The position numbers were made by a program, and so were the translations under genes. The notes below the pieces were generated by a model that ran no database searches, was not told where the DNA came from, and saw only the letters and a program-made list of their open reading frames with translations. DNA of 47,374 bases from Omnitrophica bacterium RIFCSPLOWO2_12_FULL_50_11 (GTDB lineage: Bacteria > Omnitrophota > Omnitrophia > Omnitrophales > Danuiimicrobiaceae): the NCBI GenBank assembly GCA_001804315.1, contig MHFT01000044.1, positions 15,576-62,949 on the forward strand, given 5' to 3'. Positions 116-27,814 of this stretch are shown here, one piece after another; positions within the stretch are counted from its first letter, which is position 1; each line of letters starts with the position of its first letter.

Positions 116-757
116 ATGGAAGACCTTCTGAGGTTTGTTGAGGATCAAAAAATTATTGCGGTCATTCGTGTGAGTGACCACAGCGATGCCGAGTGCATTG
201 CGAAAGCAGTGATCGACGGCGGCATCCGGGTGATTGAGATCACGCCTCATGTTTCGCAGTCCACAAAATTAGTCGAAACACTTGCCAAGCAAAGTGACGT
301 CGTGGTCGGTTTAGGTTCCGCAACAGATGGAGAACAAGCTTACCGAGCGATCCAAGTAGGAGCCCGATTCGTAAGCAGTTTGTATCTAGATAACAGCATC
401 TTGACCGTGTGCAAGAACAACAATGCCATGGTCATGCAAGGCGCCTCCACAGTGACAGAAGCGATCGAAGCCTATCATTTTGGGGTGGACCTTGTCCGTC
501 TGTTTCCAGCCGATTTCTTGGGAGGCGCACCCTATGTGAAATGCTTGAGACGTTCATTTCCTTTTCTGAAGGTGGTGCCTACGAGCGGTGTCACGCTTGA
601 CAATTTTCTCGATTACATCAGGGCCGGCGCAACTGCGTGTGCGGTGGGCCGCGGGTTTTACGATGCAAGTATGGTTCGCGGTCACCTTTGGTCTGAAATT
701 ACGGATCGGGCAAAGCAGTTTGCGGAAAGGCTTGAGTCGCTGAAAGTCACTCGCTGA
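116..757 (+). CDS. KDPG/KHG aldolase family protein (Schiff-base Lys replaced by Arg)
   Basis: IIAVIR, GGIRVIEIT, GARFVSS, RLFPA and VPTSGV motifs align with the Eda family. ATG 116 chosen because the TTG at 32 is the -35 box. Confidence 0.8.
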   Translation: MEDLLRFVEDQKIIAVIRVSDHSDAECIAKAVIDGGIRVIEITPHVSQSTKLVETLAKQSDVVVGLGSATDGEQAYRAIQVGARFVSSLYLDNSILTVCKNNNAMVMQGASTVTEAIEAYHFGVDLVRLFPADFLGGAPYVKCLRRSFPFLKVVPTSGVTLDNFLDYIRAGATACAVGRGFYDASMVRGHLWSEITDRAKQFAERLESLKVTR

Positions 758-854
758 ATGAAAAAGGAATCGTGCTTTTTCAATCCAACTTGGGTCTTGT
801 GACTCTTTCTAACATCTCAAAAGTCCAGCGCTGACCCTCTTCCTTTTCCCAGTT

Positions 855-1028
855 TTATGGTTTCAAGACAAACGGAACATGTACGGCAGAGTTTTTTTTC
901 CAGTTTTCGTGCGCTTCTTTGTTCAAAATATGTTTGCGATAAAACTCCGAAAACTCCACATATTGCTCCATAGAAAGCACTGGCGGAGGAAGTGACTCCT
1001 TGATCGTCGGTAGATTTAGCGTTTCCAA
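855..1028 (-). CDS. small hypothetical protein (57 aa) coupled to the nucleotidyltransferase
   Basis: TTG start overlapping the 3' end of the upstream ORF, preceded by GGAGG; protein (M)ETLNLPTIKESLPPPVLSMEQYVEF...VPFVLKP. Confidence 0.6.
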   Translation of the reverse strand: METLNLPTIKESLPPPVLSMEQYVEFSEFYRKHILNKEAHENWKKNSAVHVPFVLKP

Positions 1029-1567
1029 TTCTTTAATGCCTCCAAAATTTTCTTGTAGATTGCTGCTGAACCATATTTGAGGCAAAGGTCTCGAAATTTT
1101 TTCGACCGAAAAGCAATGCGATTTCTTTTAATCAACTCAAGGATATCATAGAGGTCCCGATATTCTCGCTCGTTCGGATTATTTTTAATCGAATGTAGCT
1201 TTAGAGCAAAAAGATGATCCAATGAGGGTATCTTAAACCGATGGCCGCTAATTTTAGCATCCCCTGCATCTTCTATGATCCCTTCAAACGTATTCGGGTC
1301 GACAAAAATAAGGTCTATTTCCATCAACCTTGCCTTTGGTTCGCGAAAGCGGGCGAAGAGAGGATTCTTCCTTTCTTCTCTGTAGCCCGCTCCTTCTAAG
1401 GCAGCACGTGCTGTGTCATAATTTTTCTCGAGGATTAAGACATCAAGATCTGCGGTACCCCGGGTTGCCTTGTAGTAATTAACGGCAAAACCGCCGACGA
1501 GGACGAAAGGGATTTTTGCTTTTCCAAACGCCTCGGCAAGTAGCTCCAGAACATTGGGATATTTCAT
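1016..1567 (-). CDS. nucleotidyltransferase-fold protein
   Basis: LVGGFAVNYY..RGTADLD (GG...DxD) motif, later IDLI and LKLHS..R..RDLYD. Confidence 0.8.
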   Translation of the reverse strand: MKYPNVLELLAEAFGKAKIPFVLVGGFAVNYYKATRGTADLDVLILEKNYDTARAALEGAGYREERKNPLFARFREPKARLMEIDLIFVDPNTFEGIIEDAGDAKISGHRFKIPSLDHLFALKLHSIKNNPNEREYRDLYDILELIKRNRIAFRSKKFRDLCLKYGSAAIYKKILEALKNWKR

Positions 1568-1742
1568 GGGCAATCATTCAGCGTCGACAATCTTTATGTT
1601 ACTTGATTCTTGATTCAGCCGTCTATGAAAATTTGTTACACCGCATTTGGAAGTGAACTGCGTTGTCCCGAGCTTTTTGAGATTTGCATAGCACCGGTGC
1701 ATCGGGTACGCTTTAGTTACCAACCAAGGTGGCCCGGTGGAC

Positions 1743-2522
1743 ATGATTTCGTTTGGTTCCGAGGTATGTCGGAACTTTACGGAAGCGATCAAAAGAGAGT
1801 GGTACCAAACCAACGAGCTCGGCGGATTCGCCGCTTCGACGATCTTGTCACTGAACACGCGCCGTGATCACGGCCTTTTGGTGGCGTCTCTGAGACCACC
1901 GCTTGGCCGTTATGTGCTTTTGAGCGGTCTTGACGAGACCCTCTACATCGATGACGCTGCTTACCCCTTATCGACGCGGATACAAGCGAATACCATTTAT
2001 CCAAATGGATTTCTTTACTTGGATCAGTGCTCGTTGGAACCGTTTCCGAGCTGGATTTATTCGGTCGAAGATCTTTTGTTGGGGAAAAGCGTTGTGCTCC
2101 TACGCGGCGAGCAGACGGTTTTGATCCGCTATCAGATTTTATCAGGTGATGAGGACCTCGTTCGTTTGGAGCTCAGGCCGTTGACCGCTTTTCGCCACGT
2201 TGACGATTTAGCTCGTCGTAACCAGAGTCTCAATACGAAAATGGTGGTGACCAGTGACCGGATCACTTTTGCTGGCATGTACTTTTATCATAATGCCGCC
2301 ATCGTCGAAGAGTCCGGTAACTGGTACCAGCACATTCAATATCCAGAGGATAAGAAGGTTGGTCGTGAGTTCGAAGAAGATCTCTTTGCTCCATTTCGAC
2401 TGATCTACGCCTTTGGCAATCGACGTGAGAATTTTTTGGTTGGTTCCATGATCGGCCGCGAACGGATGGATTTCAAAAGCCTACTTGCGCGAGAGGTAGA
2501 GCGCCGAGCGCGGTCAAGGTAA
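1743..2522 (+). CDS. glycogen debranching enzyme N-terminal domain protein (no catalytic C-domain)
   Basis: REWYQTNELGGFAASTI..NTRRDHGLLVA..PPLGR matches the N-domain of amylo-alpha-1,6-glucosidase-type debranching enzymes; stops after about 260 aa. Confidence 0.8.
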   Translation: MISFGSEVCRNFTEAIKREWYQTNELGGFAASTILSLNTRRDHGLLVASLRPPLGRYVLLSGLDETLYIDDAAYPLSTRIQANTIYPNGFLYLDQCSLEPFPSWIYSVEDLLLGKSVVLLRGEQTVLIRYQILSGDEDLVRLELRPLTAFRHVDDLARRNQSLNTKMVVTSDRITFAGMYFYHNAAIVEESGNWYQHIQYPEDKKVGREFEEDLFAPFRLIYAFGNRRENFLVGSMIGRERMDFKSLLAREVERRARSR

Positions 2523-2597
2523 TCGCCTTAACCGTAAGGCAAATCACGATTTGCGAAAAGAGGATTGAGAACAAGACAGCGTCTTTTTTTACTGCAT

Positions 2598-2626
2598 TTG
2601 ACACACGACATTTCTGATGGTAGAAT
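2598..2626 (+). promoter_or_regulatory. sigma70-type promoter
   Basis: TTGACA (2598-2603), 17-nt spacer, TAGAAT (2621-2626) preceded by an extended -10 TG. Confidence 0.7.
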
Positions 2627-2723
2627 TAACCCTTTTAAACACAAGTACTTACGGTGTTTTCTGCTCGGGTTTCTTCTGAAACGCGGTTTCAAAGAAATAC
2701 AAGACTGGGTTGTAGGGCGTGGG

Positions 2724-3527
2724 ATGAAGCGGAATCGATCGTTTCTTTTTTTGTTCCTTGTCGGTTTCATTTTTGTGTTTGGACAAATGAGCTACACAGC
2801 CTTTTTTGGCGAAGTCAAAACGGGTCTCCAAAACGTCGCAAGTGATCAATATGGATATTCCTTCTATGTCCCACCAGATTACACACCGGATCGAGGTTGG
2901 CCGCTTGTTGTTGTGTTACACGATGAAGGAGACTTAGGGGAGGAATATATCCAAGGGTGGCTTGGTGCAGCGAAGGAACGCGGATTTTTAATATTTTGCC
3001 CGAATTATCCGGTGCCGCGAGATTTCCCTTACGACAGCGAAGCATGGTTGCTCAAGCACAAACGCACGTTCCAAAGCCAATATCACATTGATCCCAACCG
3101 AATTTTAGTGACCGGTTCCGGTTTTGGCGGTCATTACGCGTTGTACTTGGGTCTCCGATATCCTGAGGAATTCGCGGCCGTTGCTTCTGTGGGTAATGCA
3201 ATGAGCGGGAGATTTCAGAGGTTGTTTGCATTCTCGTTTGCTAAAGTGAATCGCTTACCGGTTCTTATCTTGAAGGGGTCGGAGGATAACGCGGACGATT
3301 CGGAGAAAGCGACAGCGGAACTCAAGACGATGCGATCGCGCGGGTATGTAGTGGAAACGGTCGAAGCCAAAACCCGAGAGGAGTTATCTGTTGCAAACGC
3401 GAGCCCTCATATTTTTGAATGGTTTGAGCAAGTGAGTTTGGAGCGGGAAAGTGGCGCACGAAGTCGTTCTTGGAGTCCACGACAGAAGTTTTTCGAGTGG
3501 GCAGATAATTTATTGCGGAATCGTTGA
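2724..3527 (+). CDS. membrane-anchored/exported alpha/beta-hydrolase-fold (esterase-like) protein, degenerate active site
   Basis: N-terminal hydrophobic segment; YVPPDY..WPLVVVLH; IDPNRILVTGSGFGG; YPEEFAAVA. Confidence 0.75.
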   Translation: MKRNRSFLFLFLVGFIFVFGQMSYTAFFGEVKTGLQNVASDQYGYSFYVPPDYTPDRGWPLVVVLHDEGDLGEEYIQGWLGAAKERGFLIFCPNYPVPRDFPYDSEAWLLKHKRTFQSQYHIDPNRILVTGSGFGGHYALYLGLRYPEEFAAVASVGNAMSGRFQRLFAFSFAKVNRLPVLILKGSEDNADDSEKATAELKTMRSRGYVVETVEAKTREELSVANASPHIFEWFEQVSLERESGARSRSWSPRQKFFEWADNLLRNR

Positions 3528-3544
3528 CAAGAGAGGTAAACATT

Positions 3545-5227
3545 GTGGCGGAGCTGACAGGGGCTAAGATCATGATCGAGTGTTTGAAACGTGAAGGAGT
3601 CGAATATCTCTTTGGGCTTCCGGGGGGCGCAATTTTGCCGACTTTCGATGCTCTTTATGATTCAGACTTGAAGTTTATTTTGGTGCGGCACGAGCAAGGC
3701 GCTGCACATATGGCGGATGGATACGCACGTGCGACGGGAAAGCCAGGTGTGTGCCTGGTGACTTCGGGGCCTGGAGCGACGAACACAGTGACTGGCCTTT
3801 GCACAGCATATATGGATTCGGTCCCGTTGGTTTGCATTACCGGCCAGGTTGCGACGCATGTGATTGGCAGCGACGCCTTTCAAGAAGCAGACATTATTGG
3901 GGTAACGCGTCCAGTGACGAAGCACAATTATTTGGTGAGGGACGTAAACGATCTAGCGCGGGTTGTGCGTGAGGCTTTTTACATTGCTACAACGGGCCGA
4001 CCAGGACCCGTTTTAATCGATTTCCCGGTCGATGTCAGCCGCGCGAAAATCGAGTTCGTTTATCCAAAAGAAGTTAACATCCGTGGTTATCGGCCGAAGA
4101 CCGAGGGCCATCCGAAGCAAATTCAAAAGGCTGCGGAACTGATCATGGAAAGCACACGGCCGTGCCTCTATGTGGGTGGGGGAACGGTCGGTTCTGGAGC
4201 ACAAAAAGAGCTGTTTGAACTGGTGGAAAAAACTGGAATTCCGGTGACGACAACGGTTTTAGGACTGGGTATTTTTCCGGAAAATCATCCATCCTCGCTT
4301 CGTATGCTTGGAATGCATGGAACGCATTACGCGAATTATTCGGTACAAAATTCAGATCTTTTGATTGCGGTGGGGGCACGGTTTGACGATCGCGTTACGG
4401 GAAATATCGCAAAATTTGCGCCGCATGCGAAGATCATTCACATTGACATCGACCCGGCCTCGATTTCCAAAACGGTTAAAGTAGATGTTCCCATCGTTGG
4501 AGACATTAAGCCCATCTTGAGGGAAGTGAATAAATTGGTGAAGGACAAGCGGTCACAGATGAAGGAATGGCTCACGCAGATTGAAGGCTGGAAAAAGAAG
4601 CATCCGCTCAAGTATGACAATTCGGGCACTGAGATTAAGCAGCAATATGTGATCCAAAAGATTGGAGAAATGACCGATCACAAAGCGGTGGTCACCACGG
4701 GGGTTGGTCAGCATCAAATGTGGACCGCACAGTGGTATCAGTTTACGGCCCCTCGGAGCATGATTACGTCAGGCGGTTTGGGAACCATGGGGTATGGCTT
4801 TCCCGCAGCGATTGGGGCGCAATTAGGTCGGCCTAAGGAACAAGTGATTTGCATTGATGGAGACGGTTCATTTCAGATGACGATGACCGAACTTTCCACA
4901 GCGTCTTATTACAAAGTCCCAGTGAAAGTGATCATCATGGACAATGCTCATCACGGGATGGTGCGCCAGTGGCAGGAGCTCTTTTACAATCGTCGATACT
5001 CAGGATCGCAGTTGGGACCTTCGAATCCAGATTTTGTGAAAATTGCGGAAGGTTGTGGTGCATTTGGAATTAAGGTATCGAGAAAAGAAGAAGTGGTGGG
5101 TGCGCTTGAGAAAGCGTTCGCGTACAATGGACCTGCCGTCGTTCATTGCGTGGTCGCTCCTGCTGATAATGTATATCCCATGGTGCCAGCAGGCCACGCA
5201 CTTGATCAAGTGCTGGACATGGCGTAA
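3545..5227 (+). CDS. ilvB: acetolactate synthase large subunit (biosynthetic)
   Basis: FGLPGGA, RHEQGAAHMADGYAR, TSGPGATN, GQHQMW, GDGSFQM; GTG start after GAGGT. Confidence 0.97.
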   Translation: MAELTGAKIMIECLKREGVEYLFGLPGGAILPTFDALYDSDLKFILVRHEQGAAHMADGYARATGKPGVCLVTSGPGATNTVTGLCTAYMDSVPLVCITGQVATHVIGSDAFQEADIIGVTRPVTKHNYLVRDVNDLARVVREAFYIATTGRPGPVLIDFPVDVSRAKIEFVYPKEVNIRGYRPKTEGHPKQIQKAAELIMESTRPCLYVGGGTVGSGAQKELFELVEKTGIPVTTTVLGLGIFPENHPSSLRMLGMHGTHYANYSVQNSDLLIAVGARFDDRVTGNIAKFAPHAKIIHIDIDPASISKTVKVDVPIVGDIKPILREVNKLVKDKRSQMKEWLTQIEGWKKKHPLKYDNSGTEIKQQYVIQKIGEMTDHKAVVTTGVGQHQMWTAQWYQFTAPRSMITSGGLGTMGYGFPAAIGAQLGRPKEQVICIDGDGSFQMTMTELSTASYYKVPVKVIIMDNAHHGMVRQWQELFYNRRYSGSQLGPSNPDFVKIAEGCGAFGIKVSRKEEVVGALEKAFAYNGPAVVHCVVAPADNVYPMVPAGHALDQVLDMA

Positions 5228-5237
5228 GTGGGAGAGA

Positions 5238-5293
5238 ACAGAGGTCAGAAGTCAGAGGTCAGAAGTCAGAAGTCAGAGGACAGAAGACGGAGG
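5238..5293 (+). repeat. heptamer tandem array (consensus WCAGARG, 8 units)
   Basis: acagagg tcagaag tcagagg tcagaag tcagaag tcagagg acagaag acggagg. Confidence 0.95.
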
Positions 5294-5306
5294 GAAAAGA
5301 AGAGAA

Positions 5307-5687
5307 ATGAGCGGGACAATTAAAACGGTAAACGACCTCAGGGTTTACGAGAAGGCGTACCCGCTTGCAATGGAGATTTTTGAAATCACAAAGGATTTCC
5401 CGAAAGACGAGACGTATTCCTTGACAGACCAAATCAGGAGGTCGTCAAGATCGGTTGCGATCAATATTCGAGAAGGGTTTGCCAAGAGAAAGTATGAGCA
5501 CGTTCTAACTCGACACTTAAATGATGCGTTAGGATCAGCCGATGAGACAAGGGGGTGGTTATCCTTTGCATTGGATTGCAAGTACATTTCAAGGAAGAAG
5601 TGGGAAGATCTTGATCAGCGGTATGACGAAGTGGGTGCGATGTTGTATTCATTGATGAGTACTTGGCGCAATTTCGCCGATGACTGA
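5307..5687 (+). CDS. four helix bundle protein (23S rRNA-IVS protein / Avd-like family)
   Basis: DLRVYEKA, FPKDETYSLTDQIRRSSRSVAINIREGF, ALGSADET..WL..A..CKYI. Confidence 0.92.
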   Translation: MSGTIKTVNDLRVYEKAYPLAMEIFEITKDFPKDETYSLTDQIRRSSRSVAINIREGFAKRKYEHVLTRHLNDALGSADETRGWLSFALDCKYISRKKWEDLDQRYDEVGAMLYSLMSTWRNFADD

Positions 5688-5873
5688 CATCAGAAGTCAG
5701 ACGTCAGAAGTTAGAAGACAGACGTCAGAAGACAGAAGTCAGACGTCAGAAAATAGATGTTAGAATTTAGAAAATAGAAGTGAGAAAAAAACGAGAAGGC
5801 CTCTGTCTTCTGACTTCTGTCTTCTGACGTCTGTCTTCTAACTTCTGACGTCTGACTTCTGATGTCAGTCATC
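5679..5873. repeat. perfect 65-bp inverted repeat built from heptamer arrays (direct array 5690-5787, inverted array 5800-5862)
   Basis: 5679-5743 is the exact reverse complement of 5809-5873, with a 65-nt spacer. Confidence 0.95.
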
Positions 5874-5891
5874 TGATCATAAGGAGACACG

Positions 5892-6401
5892 ATGAAACAT
5901 ACGATTTCGGTTCTGGTCGAAAATCAGGCTGGCGTGCTCGCACGAATCGCAGGTCTTTTTTCTGCGCGCGGTTTCAATATTGACAGTCTCGCGGTTGGCG
6001 AGACGGAAGATCCGACCGTTTCGCGGATGACGATCGTCACGCACGGCGACGATCGTGTGGTCGAGCAAATTATGAAGCAACTTAACAAGCTGATCGATGT
6101 GATCAAAGTTCAGGATTTGAATGAGGTCGACATGATTGAGCGTGAACTTGTGCTCATCAAAGTCGCAGCCACGGCGAGCACGCGTTCGGAATTGATGCAG
6201 ATTGTGAATACCTTTCGTGCGAAGGTGGTCGATGTGAATCCAAAATCGCTGACGGTTGAAGTGACGGGAAATCAAAGCAAAATCGATGCACTGCTCGAAC
6301 TCGTTCGGCCGTTTGGCATTAAAAGCGTGGCGCGAACGGGTGTGATCGCGCTCACACGCGGGGTAGAGGAGAAAAAACCAGCTGAGAAAGCGAGTGGGTA
6401 A
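5892..6401 (+). CDS. ilvN: acetolactate synthase small subunit
   Basis: HTISVLVENQAGVLARIAGLFSARGFNIDSL ACT domain; AAGGAG RBS. Confidence 0.97.
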   Translation: MKHTISVLVENQAGVLARIAGLFSARGFNIDSLAVGETEDPTVSRMTIVTHGDDRVVEQIMKQLNKLIDVIKVQDLNEVDMIERELVLIKVAATASTRSELMQIVNTFRAKVVDVNPKSLTVEVTGNQSKIDALLELVRPFGIKSVARTGVIALTRGVEEKKPAEKASG

Positions 6402-6442
6402 AGAGATCTCGTAACCGTTAGAAACGGGAAAGGACGAACAAC

Positions 6443-7480
6443 ATGGCAAAAATTTATTACGATCAAGACGCAGATTTGAACGTGTTGAAAGGGAAAAAAG
6501 TTGCGGTCATTGGCTACGGCATTCAGGGCCGAGGGCAAGGTCTTAATTTACGCGATTCTGGGGTCGAAGTGATCGTCAGCCAACGCCGCGGTGGAAAGAA
6601 TTATGAGCTTGCGGTTCAAGATGGGTTTCAGCCGGTCGGTGCCGAAGAAGCAGCCGAGCAAGCGGACATTATCCAAATCCTGACGCAAGACCACTTACAA
6701 GCGGAGATTTATCAGAAATCAGTTGCGCCGCTTTTAAACCCTGGGAAAGCGCTCCTTTTTTCACACGGCTTCAACATTCATTTTGGGTACATTAAACCGC
6801 CCAAAGAGATCGATGTTTTCATGGTAGCGCCGAAGGGCCCTGGCGCTTTGGTGAGGAGTCAGTTCTTGGAAGGTGGCGGTGTTCCGTGTTTGGTTGCGGT
6901 TCATCAAAACCCAACGGGCAATGCATTGAAACTTGCGCTTGCACACGCGAAAGCAATCGGGGGAACTCGTGCGGGTGTCATTGAAACCACATTTAAAGAA
7001 GAGACCGAGACCGATCTTTTTGGGGAACAGGTCGTCCTTTGCGGGGGCCTCAGCGAATTGATTCGTGCGGGATTTGATACGTTGGTAAAGGCCGGATATC
7101 AGCCGGAGCTTGCTTATTTTGAATGTTTGCATGAGGTAAAGCTGATTACGGATGCCATCTTTGCTTCTGGAATCAGCGGAATGCATCGACGTGTCTCTGA
7201 TACGGCCGAGTATGGTGATTACAGCCGGGGCAAACGGATCATTACGAAAGAAACAAGAAAAGAGATGCAGAACATTTTGAGCAAGATTCAGTCTGGGGAA
7301 TTTGCGAAAGAGTGGATTGAAGAGAACAAAAAAGGACGCCCCAATTACAACCGAATGCGTGCCGAGTGCGATGGGCACATGATCGAGCAAGTGGGCGAAA
7401 AGCTTCGACGGATGATGCCGTGGATCGGTGGGTCACTTGAGAAAAAGGCTCATGCGGTTCAGCGTTCGATCGTGTCCTGA
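6443..7480 (+). CDS. ilvC: ketol-acid reductoisomerase
   Basis: [35 protein letters not shown]. Confidence 0.97.
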
Positions 7481-7496
7481 AGGAGAATGAGAATCG

Positions 7497-9047
7497 GTGA
7501 CTACGTCGAAAAGTAGAAAAAAAGTTTACATCTTTGATACGACGCTTCGCGATGGCGAACAGTGTCCGGGCGCGACCCTTACGCCCGAAGAAAAGCTTGA
7601 AATCGCAAAGCAGTTAGAACGTTTGAATGTGGACATCATCGAAGCCGGTTTTCCCGTGGCATCGCCGGGAGAAGTGGAGGCGATCCAGATGATTTCTAAG
7701 GAAGTCAAGCGCCCTGTCATTTGTGGACTTTCACGGATGGCGCAAAGGGACATAGACATCGCACGTGAAGCGCTTAAGTTTGCGTCGAAAAAGAGACTCC
7801 ATGTGTTCTTAGCAACGTCCAAGATCCACAGGGAGTACAAGTTAAAAAAGGGGAAACGTGAGATCTTGAAACTTTCGGTGCAAAACATTAAATATGGGAA
7901 AAAATTTTTTGACGATATCGAGTTTTCACCGGAAGACTCAGCACGCACGGAACGCAATTTCTTGACGGATGTCGTGAGAGCTGGAATTGATGCGGGTGCG
8001 ACGACGGTGAATATTCCAGATACGGTCGGCTACACGATGCCGGATGAGTTTGGTCAATTGATCGCCTTTCTCGTCAAAAAGAATCCCGAGCTTGGGAAAA
8101 CGGTGAATCTTTCCGTGCACTGTCATAATGACTTAGGCTTGGCGGTTGCGAATTCACTAGCTGCGATCAAACATGGAGCTAATCAAGTAGAATGTACCGT
8201 AAACGGAATTGGGGAGCGTGCTGGCAATGCTTCCCTTGAAGAAATTGTGATGGCAATTGACACGCGCCGGGACCTCATGGGTGTGTACACGGATATTCGG
8301 TTGAAGGAAATTACAAAATCGTCACGCTTGGTTTCTCATTTAACCGGCCTTGTTGTTCAACCGAACAAAGCCATTGTTGGACGTAATGCGTTTGCACATG
8401 AATCGGGTATCCATCAGGATGGGATTCTAAAGAAACGGCAGACCTACGAAATTATCGATCCTCAGCGCATCGGATTGGCGGGCAGTGAAATGGTGATGGG
8501 CAAACATTCCGGTCGGCACGCGTTTCGCGAGCGTCTGGCAAAATTGGGCTACGAGTTGAAAGCGGGAGAGCTCGAGCAAGCCTTTGAACGGTTTAAGAAA
8601 CTTTCCGATCAGAAGAAATACGTGTTCGACAAGGATTTGGAAGCGATTGTCGAAGACACGATAAGCAAGGTCCCCGAGATCTGGCGGCTTGAGCATTTGA
8701 AAATCACAAGCGAGACTGGTTTGGCGCCGCGAGCAACTGTGCGTTTGAGCCGGGAAGGGAAAACAGACGAAGCAACCTCGGAAGGCGACGGCCCCGTAGA
8801 TGCTTGTTACAAAGCGATTGAAAAGATTACGGGGCTCAGTCCTAAACTCGTGGGGTACGCGATCCAGTCCGTCACGAGTGGAAAGGATGCCCTTGGAGAG
8901 GTGAATCTTAAGTTGGAAATTGAGGGCAGAGATGTGAGTGGCCGTGGGACGAGTACGGATGTCCTTGAAGCGAGTGTCAAAGCGTATCTTTTCGCGCTCA
9001 ATAAAGTCGGTGCCAAAGTACTCGGCAAGTCCTCTTCTCCAATTTAA
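7497..9047 (+). CDS. leuA: 2-isopropylmalate synthase
   Basis: FDTTLRDGEQCPG, HCHNDLG, GIGERAGNA, HESGIHQDG, GDGPVDA. Confidence 0.95.
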   Translation: MTTSKSRKKVYIFDTTLRDGEQCPGATLTPEEKLEIAKQLERLNVDIIEAGFPVASPGEVEAIQMISKEVKRPVICGLSRMAQRDIDIAREALKFASKKRLHVFLATSKIHREYKLKKGKREILKLSVQNIKYGKKFFDDIEFSPEDSARTERNFLTDVVRAGIDAGATTVNIPDTVGYTMPDEFGQLIAFLVKKNPELGKTVNLSVHCHNDLGLAVANSLAAIKHGANQVECTVNGIGERAGNASLEEIVMAIDTRRDLMGVYTDIRLKEITKSSRLVSHLTGLVVQPNKAIVGRNAFAHESGIHQDGILKKRQTYEIIDPQRIGLAGSEMVMGKHSGRHAFRERLAKLGYELKAGELEQAFERFKKLSDQKKYVFDKDLEAIVEDTISKVPEIWRLEHLKITSETGLAPRATVRLSREGKTDEATSEGDGPVDACYKAIEKITGLSPKLVGYAIQSVTSGKDALGEVNLKLEIEGRDVSGRGTSTDVLEASVKAYLFALNKVGAKVLGKSSSPI

Positions 9048-9050
9048 GAG

Positions 9051-9255
9051 TCATCAGCCGTCAGCTTTCGGTCATCAGCCGTGAAACCTGGGACAGAAAT
9101 GCAAGGCATAATGGGCCGAGCAAAATGCATGACCCTATTTCACTTAAAATGAGCAGCAGGGAAACTGCGGTTACCTTTACGGTTTATGCCTTCTATCGCC
9201 TTCAACGTTTTCAGCTGATAGCTGACGACTGATAGCTGAAAGCTGAGAGCTGATA
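9051..9255. repeat. gene-less element with inverted heptamer arrays (TCAGCYK-like x4 ... GCTGANA-like x6) and an inner 9-bp inverted repeat
   Basis: tcagccg tcagctt tcggtca tcagccg (9054-9081); gctgata gctgacg actgata gctgaaa gctgaga gctgata (9214-9255); aaggcataa (9103-9111) / ttatgcctt (9184-9192). Confidence 0.85.
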
Positions 9256-9258
9256 TTC

Positions 9259-10128
9259 ATGCGGGCAGCGGGTGATCCTGAATTAAAGGTGTACGGCATC
9301 TTTGGCTGGCCGCTGGGCCATACCGTTTCCCCTGTATTCCAGAATCGTGCGTTTGATTATTATCACTTGAAATCGATTTACTTTGCTTTTGAGCGCCCAC
9401 CTTCGCGATTTCGGTTCTTGATGCGGCACCTTAAGTCCTTTATGCTCGATGGTTTTAATGTCACCGTCCCGTATAAGGAGACCGTCATTGCCTATTTGGA
9501 TCGGCTGAGCCCTGAGGCGCGCATCATTGGTTCAGTAAACACCGTCAAGAAAGAAGGGAACCGGTGGGCCGGTTACAACACGGATCTCCACGGATTCTTA
9601 GCGGGACTTCGTGAGGCGAAATTCAGAGCCAGTGGGAAATCCGGCATGGTTTTAGGGGCAGGGGGATCCGCACGGACCGTCGTCTACGCACTGGCGAAGA
9701 GCGGTGCGCGAGACATTGTGATCGCCAATCGAACGTTGTCAAGAGCGCGGCGTCTCGTTAATAGGTTTCAGAGGCAGTTCCCAAAAACCGCGTTGCGTGC
9801 AACCTTTCTTAGAGGGAAAGAATTTGAGCGCGCGATTTCCGAAGTGGATATTTTGGTTAATGCAACGAAAGTCGGTTTGAAACCGAGCGATGGATCGCTC
9901 CTTCAGAAGAAATTATTTCCCAAAAAGAAAATTCTTGTTTACGATCTTATTTATCGGCCGCGACGAACAAAGTTACTTCAGTTAGCGAAGCAGTGCGGAT
10001 ACAAGATTCAGAATGGCGAGACGATGCTCCTCCATCAAGGGGCAAAGGCATTCGAAATGTGGACCGGCAAGCGGGCACCGCTTCGTGAGATGAAAGAAGC
10101 GCTTCATGTGGCTCTCAAATCTCAATAA
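9259..10128 (+). CDS. aroE: shikimate dehydrogenase
   Basis: GHTVSP, GFNVTVPYK, GSVNT, NTD, GAGGSAR, DLIYRP. Confidence 0.95.
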   Translation: MRAAGDPELKVYGIFGWPLGHTVSPVFQNRAFDYYHLKSIYFAFERPPSRFRFLMRHLKSFMLDGFNVTVPYKETVIAYLDRLSPEARIIGSVNTVKKEGNRWAGYNTDLHGFLAGLREAKFRASGKSGMVLGAGGSARTVVYALAKSGARDIVIANRTLSRARRLVNRFQRQFPKTALRATFLRGKEFERAISEVDILVNATKVGLKPSDGSLLQKKLFPKKKILVYDLIYRPRRTKLLQLAKQCGYKIQNGETMLLHQGAKAFEMWTGKRAPLREMKEALHVALKSQ

Positions 10129-16517: not shown

Positions 16518-17198
16518 ATGCGGATCTGGATCGGTTGGCTTTTTTTGTTCCTCACCCTTTTACTCCTCGCGTTTGGATCGTTCTCGCTGTACAGGGGCGT
16601 TGAAGAAAATCGGATCTTAACCGCGGTGATCGAACGCCTGTCGGCCGATGCTCGTGTGGCCGAAGTTGTCGTCACTGAGAGTTCCTATGATGAGAAGGAA
16701 GAGAATGTCGAAACCACGATTAAGTTTCTCGAATTTGACGCACTCGGAAAACCCCTTACCCCCAAATACTTCACCTTTAAGGGCAATACCATTCAATTTC
16801 AGGCGCTTGTGATTCGGTTTGAGGATGAGCTCGTTAAAAACGGTGACAAACTCCGAGGCAGAAGCGCATATCTCTTTCTCCGCGCGTTTGCGCTCAATCA
16901 TGAAGAAGGTGCCCAGATCTTTGACATTACGAAGGTTAAAGAGGTGCCCGACGGCTATCGGTTAGCAGGAACATCAACAGATTTCGAACGCAAACTGTGG
17001 GAAAAATTTTGGTCTTATGTACAGGATGCTAATGCGAGAACAAGCTCACAGGTGAAGAATGCACAGATCGAGGCGCCTGGTTCCATCTTCGTGCCCGGCT
17101 TGATTTACAAGATTCGTATTGAACATGACGGTGGACTTAGGGTTGACTCAGAACCGATGCCGGAAATCTTGAAAGTGGAATTTTATGGCAAAGATTAG
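16518..17198 (+). CDS. hypothetical membrane-anchored protein
   Basis: 226-aa ORF with an N-terminal hydrophobic helix, directly after the DUF502 gene. Confidence 0.75.
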   Translation: MRIWIGWLFLFLTLLLLAFGSFSLYRGVEENRILTAVIERLSADARVAEVVVTESSYDEKEENVETTIKFLEFDALGKPLTPKYFTFKGNTIQFQALVIRFEDELVKNGDKLRGRSAYLFLRAFALNHEEGAQIFDITKVKEVPDGYRLAGTSTDFERKLWEKFWSYVQDANARTSSQVKNAQIEAPGSIFVPGLIYKIRIEHDGGLRVDSEPMPEILKVEFYGKD

Positions 17199-26035: not shown

Positions 26036-27742
26036 ATGCAATACATTAGAGACAATCGTAGAAAGATAGCTTATTTTTCAATGGAAATAGGGATCAACCA
26101 GGAAATCCGTACCTACAGCGGTGGTTTGGGTATTCTTGCAGGCGACACGATTCGCTCGGCTGCCGATCTGAGTATTCCCATGGTTGGCGTAACGCTCCTT
26201 TATCGAAAAGGCTATCTTCATCAGCAGCTTGATTCGAATGGGTGGCAAATCGAAGGGCCAGACGAATGGAAGATCGAAGAATTTCTCACCGAGCTTCCGA
26301 ATAGGATTTCACTTCGCATTGAAGGCCGGTATATTTACATTCGAGCTTGGCGTTATGAGGTGACCGGTGTCAGTGGCGATATCGTCCCTGTTTTTTTCTT
26401 GGATGCAGATTTGCCAGAAAACGCAGAGCGTGACAGGTTGTTGACTCATCACCTATATGGTGGCGGTGAGTATGAGCGCCTGGCGCAGGAGAAAATTTTG
26501 GGGATCGGTGGAGTGCGCATGCTCCGAAATCTGGGTTACACCGATATCGAACGGTTTCACATGAATGAGGGCCATTCAAGTCTTTTGACGCTTGAGCTTC
26601 TAGATTTAGAGGCAACCAAAAGAGGATCGAGTGAAATTAATTACAGTGATGTTGACGCAGTCAGGGACAAGTGTGTTTTTACGACTCATACACCCGTCAG
26701 TGCCGGGCACGACATTTTTGGCTTGGAGCTGGTGGAGCAAGTCTTGAGGCGGCAGGAATTCCGGAAGATGCCAGAAGTATTTTGTCATGAGGGGAAGCTC
26801 AACATGACTTATGTGGCCATGAATTTAAGCCGCTATATCAACGGTGTTGCGAAGAAGCATGGCGAAGTATCGAGAACGATGTTCAGCACCCATGACATTG
26901 ATTCGATCACGAATGGGGTTCATGTGAGCTACTGGACGAGTGTTTCTATGCAGGCGGTTTTTGACAAGTATCTGAAAGGGTGGAGAAAAGATAATTATGA
27001 GCTGCGGTACACGTTGAACATCCCGAACGAGGCCATTTGGAAGGCTCATCAAGAGGCCAAAAAAAAGTTGATCGCTCTCATCGGTGAGACCACTTCTCGT
27101 GTTTTCGACGCGGACGTGTTTACGATTGGCTTCGCGAGAAGATTCACGCAATATAAACGCGGTGATTTGATCTTTCATGACATGAATAAGTTGATACGGA
27201 TTGCTGAAGATTCAAAAGGCCTCCAGATCGTTTTTGGTGGAAAAGCTCATCCGCGGGATCAGATGGGCAAAGACATTATTCAAAGGGTGGTTCGTCATTC
27301 GAAAGTGAGAAGCGAGAAACTGAAGATCATTTTTTTGCCCGACTATGATATTGAGCTCGCGAAAATTCTGATCCCCGGCGTGGATTTATGGCTCAACACG
27401 CCGGAAGCACCGCTGGAAGCTTCGGGAACAAGCGGGATGAAGGCTGCCTTAAACGGCGTACCTTCCTTGAGCACGTTAGATGGCTGGTGGATAGAAGGTC
27501 ATGTGGAAGGGATCACCGGCTGGTCGATCGGTGAAGACGATAAGGCAAAGCCTCAAGGGGAGAGCTCACAGCGTCATGCCGAGTCCCTTTATGAGAAGCT
27601 TAAGACTAAAATTCTGCCCTTGTTTTATGGTCGTTTGGCGAATTACCAGCATATCATGCGCAATTCTATTTCTTTGAACGGCGCGTTCTTTAACACACAG
27701 AGAATGTTACAAGAGTACGTGTTGAAAGCATATTACCTTTAG
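26036..27742 (+). CDS. glgP: alpha-glucan (glycogen/maltodextrin) phosphorylase
   Basis: AYFSME, YSGGLGILAGD, HMNEGH, ARRFTQYKR, EASGTSGMKAALNG. Confidence 0.95.
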   Translation: MQYIRDNRRKIAYFSMEIGINQEIRTYSGGLGILAGDTIRSAADLSIPMVGVTLLYRKGYLHQQLDSNGWQIEGPDEWKIEEFLTELPNRISLRIEGRYIYIRAWRYEVTGVSGDIVPVFFLDADLPENAERDRLLTHHLYGGGEYERLAQEKILGIGGVRMLRNLGYTDIERFHMNEGHSSLLTLELLDLEATKRGSSEINYSDVDAVRDKCVFTTHTPVSAGHDIFGLELVEQVLRRQEFRKMPEVFCHEGKLNMTYVAMNLSRYINGVAKKHGEVSRTMFSTHDIDSITNGVHVSYWTSVSMQAVFDKYLKGWRKDNYELRYTLNIPNEAIWKAHQEAKKKLIALIGETTSRVFDADVFTIGFARRFTQYKRGDLIFHDMNKLIRIAEDSKGLQIVFGGKAHPRDQMGKDIIQRVVRHSKVRSEKLKIIFLPDYDIELAKILIPGVDLWLNTPEAPLEASGTSGMKAALNGVPSLSTLDGWWIEGHVEGITGWSIGEDDKAKPQGESSQRHAESLYEKLKTKILPLFYGRLANYQHIMRNSISLNGAFFNTQRMLQEYVLKAYYL

Positions 27743-27814
27743 GAATACTGAACCCCCAACGATTTCTTTCTCCTCCCTTTGATGCCGAAGTAAAGAGTTT
27801 TTTTGAGTGATCAT

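What the first reader, a model, noticed from the sequence alone, without database searches (positions are those of the whole stretch)
5238..5876. Four-helix-bundle gene inserted in the ilv operon inside a heptamer-repeat frame: candidate RNA-structured mobile or excisable cassette
Seen: ilvB and ilvN are separated by a cassette of 8 direct heptamers (WCAGARG), a 126-aa four-helix-bundle gene, about 14 further direct heptamers and about 9 inverted heptamers, ending just before the ilvN RBS. The inverted array can pair with the nearby array or with the upstream array, and the second pairing would loop out the whole gene. Known: ilvB and ilvN are normally adjacent. This protein family includes proteins encoded in 23S rRNA intervening sequences (excised from a long stem) and is structurally related to the RNA-binding Avd of diversity-generating retroelements. 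Inference: gene plus repeats may be one unit in which the protein binds the 7-nt periodic RNA or DNA. It could be an mRNA intervening sequence, a non-autonomous mobile element, or an alternative-pairing switch controlling ilvN. No transposase or reverse transcriptase lies nearby.
Basis: partly seen in the sequence, partly recalled or inferred. Interest (0 to 1): 0.85.

Follow-up and report, generated by a model that had tools for sequence, protein, structure and literature searches.

The report
Four-helix gene framed by heptamer repeats
A small gene of unknown function wedged between two subunit genes of an amino-acid enzyme sits in a frame of mirrored 7-base repeats, and the same frame surrounds relatives of this gene across many bacterial and some archaeal groups, tying an orphan protein family to a long-puzzling class of repeats.

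Summary
Between ilvB and ilvN lie 8 direct heptamers, a 126-aa PF05635/TIGR02436 four-helix-bundle gene, 14 more direct heptamers (9 intact, 5 decayed) and 9 inverted ones. The last two arrays form a roughly 70-bp hairpin that ends 18 nt before the ilvN start codon.

The gene and its repeats are one unit, and this holds generally:
- All 3 PF05635 genes of this genome are framed this way, each with a different unit.
- The best upstream period is 7 or 8 in 28 of 30 copies from this order and in 67 of 77 copies from many phyla.
- The flanks are complementary in 83 of 104 loci.

ORF-less heptamer hairpins abound in this genome. In the sampled relatives, period-7 arrays are about six times denser where PF05635 is present. 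The ilvB-ilvN junction is empty in five relatives and holds ORF-less heptamer hairpins in others.

The closest known thing is the ORF-bearing intervening sequence (IVS) of 23S rRNA; the Coxiella one has heptamers too. I read this as an IVS-type selfish cassette lodged in an operon. No RNA data exist, and a G·U-versus-A·C test gives no sign of RNA-level selection. Mobility, RNase III cutting and protein-repeat binding are all inferred. The alternative-pairing switch is disfavoured.

The parts
3524..5227 (+). ilvB, large subunit of acetolactate synthase; the upstream neighbour of the cassette
   Evidence: The three TPP_enzyme domains match, E 7e-57 to 2e-44.
5233..5294 (+). Array A: 8 direct heptamers (CAGARGW register, 5239-5294) preceded by one degenerate unit. 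The last unit carries the GGAGG Shine-Dalgarno sequence of the four-helix gene.
   Evidence: TRF finds 5239-5286, period 7, 6.9 copies, 85% matches. The sequence was read directly.
5307..5687 (+). [quoted passage not shown]
   Evidence: PF05635 scores 113.6 bits against a cut-off of 33.8, and TIGR02436 scores 105.6 against 24. The AlphaFold2 model has pLDDT 95.6 and four helices. The best structural matches are 2gsc and 2rld, then Avd 4dwl.
5679..5750 (+). Left arm of the long hairpin. It holds the last three codons of the gene plus the nine well-kept direct heptamers of array B.
   Evidence: Inverted repeat I1: 72 nt, 97% complementary. Fold energy is -133.8 kcal/mol.
5751..5801 (+). Loop of the hairpin. 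It contains five further direct units that have decayed to A-rich sequence.
   Evidence: Sequence read. TRF reports 5761-5788 with period 14. The stretch is unpaired apart from two small internal stems in the fold.
5802..5873 (+). Array B': 9 inverted heptamers plus 9 non-repeat bases. This is the right arm of the hairpin, and it is also complementary to array A.
   Evidence: Duplex energies are -135.1 kcal/mol with B and -86.3 with A.
5881..6401 (+). ilvN Shine-Dalgarno sequence (AAGGAG, 5881-5886) and ilvN, the small subunit of acetolactate synthase (5892-6401); the downstream neighbour of the cassette
   Evidence: ALS_ss_C E 2.5e-32 and ACT_AHAS_ss E 1.3e-27.

Best explanation
The PF05635 gene and its inverted heptamer arrays are one inherited cassette. 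It is of the same kind as the ORF-bearing intervening sequences of 23S rRNA, but here it is lodged between two co-transcribed genes, ilvB and ilvN.

I read it as a selfish or neutral insertion that depends on host transcription. It has no promoter-like site of its own, and its neighbours run in the same direction.

The canonical form has three parts in order:
- a G-rich array of about 4-5 tandem 7-nt units (sometimes 8-nt);
- about 25 nt containing the ribosome-binding site, followed by the ORF;
- about 9 nt further on, the complementary C-rich array.

The ilv copy carries an extra direct array (B). This array pairs almost perfectly with the inverted array and makes a roughly 70-bp hairpin just before the ilvN ribosome-binding site.

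Inferred steps:
- In the transcript, such stems are cut by RNase III, as in rRNA intervening sequences. The insertion then merely splits the operon mRNA and is tolerated.
- The complementarity of the arms is kept up at the DNA level, by copying between arms, rather than by selection on RNA pairing.
- The protein is a pentameric ring by homology. It acts on the periodic arrays, perhaps one unit per protomer. The many ORF-less heptamer hairpins of the same genomes are then its derivatives or its targets.
For: Shown in this genome:
- All 3 PF05635 genes are framed by inverted 7-nt arrays, each with a different unit. They sit at ilvB|ilvN, gatA|gatB, and between the membrane-fusion and RND-pump genes of an efflux system.
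- They are the only inverted array pairs with more than 300 nt of cargo among the 26 pairs found (the ilv copy is seen).

Shown in homologues:
- The best upstream period is 7 in 26 of 30 copies from the order and 54 of 77 copies from many phyla. It is 8 in 2 and 13 more. Downstream it is 7 in 21 of 30 and 42 of 77.
- The periodicity threshold is reached by 5 of 1070 shuffled flanks and by 33 of 652 distal windows of the same loci.
- Flank complementarity exceeds the 95th percentile of shuffles in 83 of 104 loci.
- The 5' arm has more G than C in 63 loci and less in 13.
- Arrays have a median of 4.3 copies upstream and 3.9 downstream.
- The upstream neighbour is co-directional in 91 of 103 loci and the downstream one in 89 of 104.
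- 15 of 17 copies on viral contigs have a period-7 array on at least one side.

Shown at the ilvB-ilvN junction of 25 relatives:
- Five have tight junctions of 12-25 nt.
- Eight have period 7 as the best period but no gene. All eight are among the 16 PF05635-positive genomes; none is among the 9 negative ones.

Shown genome-wide:
- Period-7 arrays number 6 in 1.09 Mb of 8 PF05635-negative relatives and 38 in 1.14 Mb of 6 positive relatives.
- The window's own genome has 88 in 2.24 Mb.
- Other periods give 9 against 10.

Shown for protein and array together:
- Unit similarity rises with protein identity (rho 0.20; 0 of 300 label permutations reach it).
- Period 8 clusters on the protein tree (7 changes against a shuffled mean of 13.5), including one clade that spans three phyla.

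From papers:
- The Coxiella IVS has a 28-bp terminal stem, an RNase III cut in the middle of that stem, and 3-4 tandem heptamers before its S23p ORF (PMC4990558, passages).
- 18 PF05635 genes were found inside cas operons, one of them between cmr3 and cmr2 (PMC3936711, passage).
Against: - No RNA data exist. None of the 11 runs that hold the locus is RNA.
- Mismatches in the 83 stems split G.U 54 against A.C 57. Nothing therefore indicates selection for an RNA stem, and cutting by RNase III is analogy only.
- In the ilv copy the fold does not enclose the gene.
- No near-identical cassette copies were seen, no consistent target-site duplication, and no contig joining across an empty site at this locus. 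Recent mobility is not shown.
- Only 16% of 119 ORF-less arrays share at least 6 of 7 unit positions with a cassette of their own genome, against 3% with cassettes of other genomes. Most arrays have no cognate cassette.
- The window's protein is slightly acidic (pI 6.1); the family median is 8.9. This is weak support for nucleic-acid binding.
- The genome-level association has exceptions. G023 and G014 are positive with 0.5 arrays per 100 kb; G027 and G030 are negative with 2.0 and 1.6.
- That association rests on 15 related genomes, the negative ones partly incomplete.
Confidence: 0.5

Rival explanations
1. Host regulator. The pentamer is a post-transcriptional or DNA-binding regulator. It reads regularly spaced short motifs in heptamer arrays throughout the genome, in the manner of ring proteins that bind spaced triplets (recalled analogy: TRAP, HutP). 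Its own flanks are autoregulatory operators, and the ORF-less arrays are its regulon.
For: - Arrays lie between genes and just before ribosome-binding sites.
- The typical array has 4-5 units, and the solved relatives are deposited with five chains each.
- The dinucleotide AG occurs in 34 of 42 unit consensus sequences and GT in 29. Their complements CT and AC occur in 11 and 12.
- Genomes with the gene have more arrays.
Against: - The distribution is patchy within one order: 19 of 31 genomes have a match, with 1-7 matches each, some of them broken by stop codons.
- The gene sits at different places in different genomes, and the units differ at almost every locus.
- There is no G.U excess in the stems.
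- Copies occur on viral contigs.
- These features fit an accessory element better than a conserved regulator.
Confidence: 0.2
2. Passenger in pre-existing hairpins. Heptamer hairpins arise from a host property such as polymerase slippage or palindrome dynamics. PF05635 genes merely insert into them, or survive best there. The protein's function lies elsewhere and does not involve the repeats.
For: - ORF-less heptamer hairpins far outnumber the genes. The genome has 133 merged arrays and 26 inverted pairs against 3 genes.
- 84% of ORF-less arrays have no unit match to a cassette of their own genome.
- Polymerase slippage has been proposed in print for the excess of heptamer repeats (PMC4692102, passage).
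Against: - PF05635 is the only protein-coding cargo seen in such frames in this genome.
- The frame travels with the gene across phyla and onto viral contigs.
- The 7-versus-8 period follows the protein tree rather than the host taxon.
- Relatives without the gene have few period-7 arrays.
Confidence: 0.15
3. Alternative-pairing switch for ilvN. The inverted array pairs either with array B or with array A, and that choice sets ilvN translation or mRNA stability.
For: Both pairings are possible: -135.1 and -86.3 kcal/mol. When B is forbidden to pair, B' pairs with 5231-5355. The stem ends 8 nt before the ilvN Shine-Dalgarno sequence.
Against: - The local hairpin is about 49 kcal/mol more stable and is transcribed contiguously.
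- Nothing here would sense a signal.
- The same frame occurs at unrelated junctions such as gatA|gatB and the efflux genes.
- Five relatives do without any insert.
- There is no terminator-like T run.
Confidence: 0.05
4. REPIN-like repeats moved by a Y1 (IS200/RAYT-type) transposase, with the four-helix gene as incidental cargo.
For: The genome has two Y1_Tnp genes. One of them, C77:14040-14363, is framed by a roughly 29-bp inverted repeat that contains tandem TTTACAT units.
Against: - Y1_Tnp does not track the arrays. G002, G004, G006 and G015 have 2-5 matches and no period-7 array in the sample.
- Conversely, G005 has no Y1_Tnp match and 3.1 arrays per 100 kb, and G018 has only a broken copy and 6.0.
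Confidence: 0.03

Closest known systems
ORF-bearing intervening sequences (IVS) of 23S rRNA (Leptospira, Coxiella)
   Same: - The ORF belongs to the same protein family.
- It is enclosed by terminal inverted repeats that form a long stem.
- In Coxiella, 3-4 tandem heptamers lie just before the ORF, their number varies between strains, and an RNase III cut falls in the stem (PMC4990558, passages).
- The element is inserted into a transcribed unit and relies on host transcription.
   Different: - Here the element lies between protein-coding genes of an operon, not in an rRNA helix.
- The arrays are longer (8-14 units).
- An extra direct array turns the downstream part into a hairpin of its own, so that the gene is not enclosed in the minimum-energy fold.
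- Processing has not been tested.
Avd, the accessory protein of diversity-generating retroelements
   Same: Four-helix-bundle fold. The Foldseek match to 4dwl_D has E 8e-3 and TM-scores of 0.74 and 0.86. PHROG 'Avd protein of DGR' matches at E 1.2e-12.
   Different: - Scores fall below both curated Avd cut-offs (NF033474: 40.2 against 80; PF22296: 37.1 against 40).
- No reverse transcriptase or template/variable repeat pair lies nearby. The genome's only RT hits are a group II-intron-type fragment and a weak one, both on other contigs.
Over-represented intergenic heptamer repeats (GGGAATC in Xanthomonas, GGGGAYT in Nostoc, TAACTGA in Beggiatoaceae, cyanobacterial STRR)
   Same: - Tandem 7-nt units in intergenic DNA.
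- Often about four units long.
- Sometimes in inverted pairs.
- Length and sequence vary between close relatives (PMC4692102 and PMC4679880, passages).
   Different: Those papers, in the passages I read and by term counts ('S23', 'intervening', 'four helix' = 0), do not link the repeats to PF05635 genes. Here the link is the main result. Both Xanthomonas campestris (Xcc0516) and Nostoc (alr0549) do carry such genes, but I did not test their flanks.
RAYT/REPIN systems
   Same: The genomic logic is the same: a few protein genes flanked by inverted copies of a repeat that is also dispersed, without a gene, in intergenic DNA.
   Different: - The protein is a small helical bundle with no recognised nuclease fold, not a HUH Y1 transposase.
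- The dispersed copies share periodicity, not sequence.
- Y1_Tnp presence does not track the arrays.

Membership tests
PF05635 / TIGR02436 (23S rRNA intervening-sequence protein, 'four helix bundle protein') | Profile score above the curated cut-off | tested here: met
   PF05635 scores 113.6 bits against 33.8. TIGR02436 scores 105.6 against 24.
PF05635 / TIGR02436 | Four-helix-bundle fold like Xcc0516 (2gsc) and BT_0352 (2rld) | tested here: met
   The AlphaFold2 model has pLDDT 95.6 and four helices. Foldseek gives TM-scores of 0.85 and 0.91 to 2gsc_B and 0.77 and 0.86 to 2rld_B. phmmer gives 3.3e-10 and 2.4e-8.
PF05635 / TIGR02436 | Conserved motif GxxRxxxSxxxNxxE (as given in PMC3936711) | tested here: inconclusive
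   R45, S49, N53 and E56 are present. S49, N53 and E56 are invariant or nearly so in alignment A1, as is E80. The position three residues before R45 is Q42, not G.
PF05635 / TIGR02436 | Homopentameric ring | not tested
   Both solved relatives are deposited with five chains. The pentamer is stated in PMC4990558 citing Lin et al. 2006. No oligomer prediction was run.
DGR Avd | Score above the curated Avd model cut-off | tested here: not met
   NF033474 scores 40.2 bits against 80. PF22296 scores 37.1 against 40.
DGR Avd | Adjacent reverse transcriptase with template and variable repeats | tested here: not met
   No RVT_1 hit lies in contig C44. The genome's hits are on C97 (a group II-intron-type fragment at the contig end) and C52 (weak).
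23S rRNA intervening sequence (IVS) element | Inserted in a 23S (or 16S) rRNA helix | tested here: not met
   The element lies between ilvB and ilvN. The two other copies lie between gatA and gatB and between efflux genes.
23S rRNA intervening sequence (IVS) element | Terminal inverted repeats that form a stem enclosing the ORF | tested here: inconclusive
   Met in 83 of 104 homologous loci and in the genome's two other copies. In the ilv copy the A:B' stem is possible (-86.3 kcal/mol) but is outcompeted by B:B'.
23S rRNA intervening sequence (IVS) element | Excision from the transcript by RNase III | not testable with these tools
   No RNA run holds the locus.
RAYT/REPIN | The flanked gene encodes a HUH Y1 transposase | tested here: not met
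   The gene is PF05635. Y1_Tnp genes lie elsewhere and do not track the arrays.
Intrinsic terminator / attenuator | GC-rich stem followed by a run of T | tested here: not met
   No terminator-like site was found on the + strand in 5000-6000. The stem is followed by CTGATCATAAGGAG.
Rfam RNA families | Match at the gathering score | tested here: not met
   The only match is a sub-threshold hairpin hit: mir-641, 38 bits against 100.

The most novel reading that the evidence does not exclude
PF05635 ring proteins and inverted arrays of tandem 7-nt (or 8-nt) units form a widespread and so far unrecognised genetic system of bacteria, archaea and their viruses. The protein maintains, spreads or uses the periodic arrays.

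This system would be the cause of the long-noted excess of heptamer repeats in prokaryotic genomes. It would also be the origin of ORF-bearing rRNA intervening sequences.
Probability: 0.35. Interest if true: 0.9.

Novelty: new variant of a known kind. Interest (0 to 1): 0.75.

Why it matters
PF05635/TIGR02436 is a very large family with solved structures and no known function. A single-sequence search found 11,153 clusters at 50% identity.

Intergenic heptamer repeats have been noted in print at least since a 2007 survey as an unexplained excess (as cited in PMC4692102 and PMC4679880). Older cyanobacterial reports are from my recall only.

If the two belong together, each gives the other a handle:
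- The protein gets a candidate ligand of defined length and period.
- The repeats get a candidate trans-acting factor.
- rRNA intervening sequences become one special case of a general cassette that lodges wherever a transcript tolerates being cut.

There are also practical consequences. The frame flags these genes as insertions. This matters when they are read as 'associated' with cas or other operons. It also explains why assemblies break at such sites.

Tried and rejected
- **Rfam scan** of 5000-9400 at E up to 1 gave only a sub-threshold microRNA-like hairpin hit.
- **Promoter and terminator scan** of 5000-6000 found no promoter-like site and no + strand terminator.
- **Sequencing runs:** 11 holders were listed, all DNA, and no RNA holder was listed.
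- **Laying contigs of four runs** confirmed the sequence piecewise.
  - It gave no clean joint across an empty ilvB-ilvN site.
  - The many 'joints' come from other loci or organisms that carry the same repeat. The repeat bins reach depths in the thousands.
- **G.U against A.C mismatch test** for strand-specific (RNA) selection came out flat, 54 against 57.
- **Cognate-unit test:** only 16% of ORF-less arrays match a cassette unit of their own genome. One-protein-one-unit specificity is therefore rejected as a general rule.
- **Target-site duplication:** by eye, comparison of filled and empty junctions gave no consistent duplication. A 4-nt TAAG on both sides in this genome may be chance.
- **ORF-less hairpin cargos as remnants of the gene:** the family search of the whole genome found only the 3 genes. 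BLAST of the cargos found other small dispersed repeats instead.
- **Defence-system libraries:** no PADLOC hit.
- **RAYT idea:** rejected.
- **Junction association:** at the strict threshold it is 5 of 16 against 0 of 9, Fisher p 0.12. Only the looser criterion (best period 7) gives 8 of 16 against 0 of 9.
- **Taxonomy** of the organism was not established. It is a metagenome-assembled genome seen in groundwater and soil runs.
- **The tree** is the quick version. The careful search did not finish and many forks are unresolved.
- **Literature:**
  - Searches were.
  - I saw only listings and the passages returned by 'find'.
  - An earlier description of the general rule could have been missed, especially in subscription journals.
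  - Mazel 1990, Elhai 2008, Mrazek 2007, Lin 2006 and Ralph and McClelland 1993 are known to me only by recall or through citations in those passages.
- **Rows dropped before counts:**
  - L048, a 28-residue partial match.
  - The 32 places for which no locus was cut.
  - 3 of the 80 wide loci on each side, for short or N-containing flanks.
  - 6 of 110 loci in the stem test.
  - L007, which has no ilvB end in the locus.
Full report
**What is there.**
- The window carries ilvB (3524-5227), ilvN (5892-6401), ilvC and leuA in one direction. A 664-base insert separates ilvB from ilvN.
- Read in one register, the insert has five parts in order:
  - 8 direct heptamers CAGARGW (5239-5294). The last holds the GGAGG of the next gene.
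  - A 126-aa ORF (5307-5687).
  - 14 further direct heptamers (5691-5788). Nine are well kept and five have decayed to A-rich sequence.
  - 9 inverted heptamers (5802-5864).
  - 9 non-repeat bases complementary to the last codons of the ORF.

**The protein.**
- It scores far above the curated cut-offs of PF05635 (113.6 bits against 33.8) and TIGR02436 (105.6 against 24). It scores below those of the two Avd models.
- An AlphaFold2 model built on 26 sequences has pLDDT 95.6 and four long helices.
- Its best structural matches are Xcc0516 (2gsc) and BT_0352 (2rld). Avd (4dwl) follows at a distance.
- Both solved relatives are deposited with five chains.
- The family is very large. A single-sequence search gave 11,153 representatives at E up to 0.001, and the 150 listed are nearly all stand-alone proteins of about 80-190 aa.
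- There is no PADLOC hit.
- The genome's only reverse-transcriptase hits are a group II-intron-type fragment on C97 and a weak one on C52, both on other contigs.

**Local structure.**
- Arms 5679-5750 and 5802-5873 are 97% complementary over 72 nt with a 51-nt loop.
- As RNA the hairpin has -133.8 kcal/mol, z = -17.7.
- The upstream array can also pair with the inverted array (-86.3 kcal/mol). This is about 49 kcal/mol weaker than the local pairing (-135.1). It appears in a fold only when array B is forbidden to pair.
- The units that lie in the loop have decayed, while those with a partner are kept.
- No T run follows the stem, and there is no promoter-like site.

**The same genome.**
- It holds three PF05635 genes:
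  - between ilvB and ilvN;
  - between gatA and gatB;
  - between the membrane-fusion and RND-pump genes of an efflux system.
- All three have a direct array before the gene and the complementary array after it. The units are unrelated: GTCAGAR, GGTCCAC and AAGSGTA.
- Period 7 is the commonest tandem period in the genome (195 TRF rows; the next is period 9 with 131).
- After merging there are 133 arrays, and 26 adjacent inverted pairs among them.
- Most of these pairs are hairpins with only 7-225 nt between the arms. Only the PF05635 frames carry more than 300 nt.
- One ORF-less frame lies in this window between leuA and aroE (9050-9081 and 9213-9255).

**The junction in relatives.**
- Of 25 relatives with an ilvB-ilvN junction in hand, none has the gene.
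- Five have tight junctions of 12-25 nt (TAAGGAGA...).
- Eight have period 7 as the best period in a 62-105-nt insert. Four of these are clear inverted hairpins with other units.
- The rest have other palindromes or short spacers.
- All eight belong to the 16 genomes in which PF05635 was found; none belongs to the 9 in which it was not.
- At a stricter threshold the split is 5 of 16 against 0 of 9, Fisher p 0.12.
- These genomes are kin, so such counts overstate independence.

**Generality.** I examined two sets of copies:
- 30 copies from the order. These are 27 of the 62 places for which loci were cut, plus the genome's own three.
- 80 copies from a scan of one genome per species. There, 586 of 600 candidates were relatives and the best 80 were kept. 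They include Nitrospirota, Acidobacteriota, Bacteroidota, Cyanobacteriota, Planctomycetota, Chloroflexota, Bacillota, Pseudomonadota, Patescibacteria and two Methanobacteriota archaea.

Counts from these sets (order set first, then wide set):

| Measure | Order set | Wide set |
|---|---|---|
| Upstream 150 nt, best period 7 | 26 of 30 | 54 of 77 |
| Upstream 150 nt, best period 8 | 2 | 13 |
| Downstream, best period 7 | 21 of 30 | 42 of 77 |
| Downstream, best period 8 | 2 | 13 |

- The threshold of 18 of 28 lag matches is reached by 5 of 1070 shuffled flanks and by 33 of 652 distal windows of the same loci.
- The two flanks are complementary beyond the 95th percentile of shuffles in 83 of 104 loci. 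The median stem is 24 nt.
- Arrays have a median of 4.3 units upstream and 3.9 downstream. They end about 25 nt before the gene and begin about 9 nt after the stop.
- The 5' arm has more G than C in 63 loci and less in 13. For an inverted repeat this polarity is the same on both strands.
- Neighbours are co-directional: 91 of 103 upstream and 89 of 104 downstream.
- Of 17 copies on viral contigs, several of them near-duplicates, 15 show a period-7 array on at least one side.

**RNA or DNA?**
- In the 83 stems the pairs are 1763 Watson-Crick, 54 G.U, 57 A.C and 142 other.
- Selection on an RNA stem in the sense strand should favour G.U over A.C, and it does not.
- Complementarity therefore seems to be kept by a symmetric, DNA-level process, or the arms are young.

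**Genome-level link.** With one TRF setting I counted period-7 arrays in sampled DNA:

| Group | Genomes | Period-7 arrays | DNA sampled | Per genome |
|---|---|---|---|---|
| PF05635-negative relatives | 8 | 6 | 1.09 Mb | 0, 2, 0, 0, 0, 0, 4, 0 |
| PF05635-positive relatives | 6 | 38 | 1.14 Mb | 12, 1, 10, 9, 5, 1 |
| The window's own genome | 1 | 88 | 2.24 Mb | |

- Other periods together give 9 against 10.
- There are exceptions both ways, the negative genomes are partly incomplete, and all are related.
- Y1 transposase genes do not track the arrays.

**Protein and array together.**
- Unit similarity rises weakly with protein identity (rho 0.20; 0 of 300 permutations reach it).
- Orthologous loci in two genera keep related units (L042 and L046).
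- On a quick protein tree the 8-nt label needs 7 changes against 13.5 in shuffles.
- Against strict specificity, only 16% of 119 ORF-less arrays match a cassette unit of their own genome, against 3% for foreign ones.

**In print.**
- The Coxiella IVS paper reports a 28-bp terminal stem, an RNase III cut in mid-stem, and 3-4 tandem heptamers before the S23p ORF whose number varies between strains (PMC4990558, passages).
- Heptamer repeats are reported as over-represented in Xanthomonas and Nostoc, sometimes as inverted pairs, and in Beggiatoaceae. In those texts the terms 'S23', 'intervening' and 'four helix' do not occur (PMC4692102, PMC4679880).
- PF05635 genes were noted inside cas operons and in rRNA insertions of CPR bacteria (PMC3936711 and bioRxiv 10.1101/2024.02.27.582315, passages).
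- My nine searches found no statement of the general rule. The library lacks most subscription journals, and supplements are closed.

**Reading.**
- Shown:
  - Gene and inverted periodic arrays are one co-inherited unit across phyla.
  - The ilv copy is a lineage-specific insertion at a junction that is empty in some relatives.
  - Arrays without a gene are common where the gene family is present.
- Inferred:
  - The cassette is a selfish or neutral element of the IVS kind, tolerated because its stem lets the transcript be cut.
  - The ring protein acts on the arrays.
- I put 0.5 on this reading. I put 0.2 on a host regulator that reads the arrays, 0.15 on a passenger in pre-existing hairpins, and little on an ilvN switch or a RAYT system.

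Noticed in passing
window 9050-9081 and 9213-9255: A second frame of inverted heptamer arrays (ATCAGCC/GTCAGCT type against AGCTGAT x6) encloses about 130 nt of non-coding DNA between leuA and aroE. It has no Rfam match and no BLAST relative elsewhere in the genome.
   Followed up: partly
G000 C77:13930-14950 (own genome, outside the window): A Y1_Tnp (IS200/RAYT-like) gene of about 315 aa is framed by a roughly 29-bp perfect inverted repeat that contains tandem TTTACAT units. Further 7-nt repeats lie just outside it.
   Followed up: partly
G000 C89:7877-7964 and at least 14 other contigs: The cargo of one heptamer hairpin contains a dispersed repeat of about 40-60 nt, found at 75-90% identity at many other places in the genome. 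This is a separate family of small repeats.
   Followed up: no
L006, L009, L011, L020, L022, L025 (ilvB-ilvN junctions of relatives): The same junction holds unrelated palindromic inserts of 128-393 nt in other genera, for example arms of the GTCATTGCGAGG type. The site is a general landing place for hairpin elements in this order.
   Followed up: no
window 5213-5326 and 5669-5839, runs X2, X3, X5, X6: Summed contig depth over the GTCAGAR arrays reaches 250-6700, against 4-10 on the flanking genes. This repeat unit is therefore very common in the groundwater and soil metagenomes that hold this organism. Their assemblies break at the arrays.
   Followed up: no
G000 C97:72-890: A reverse transcriptase fragment of group II-intron type (YADD motif) is cut off by the contig end. 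The same contig carries three ORF-less heptamer hairpins (5403-5749, 16972-17186, 27649-27813).
   Followed up: partly
Relatives: G021:C50, G017:C132, G023:C14, G020:C16, G014:C46: Several PF05635 matches are interrupted by stop codons or split in two, so copies decay. L043 (G023) is intact but has no arrays, and that genome has few arrays overall.
   Followed up: no
window 3524-3527: The TTG start of ilvB overlaps the stop codon of the upstream esterase-like gene (2565-3527) by 4 nt.
   Followed up: no
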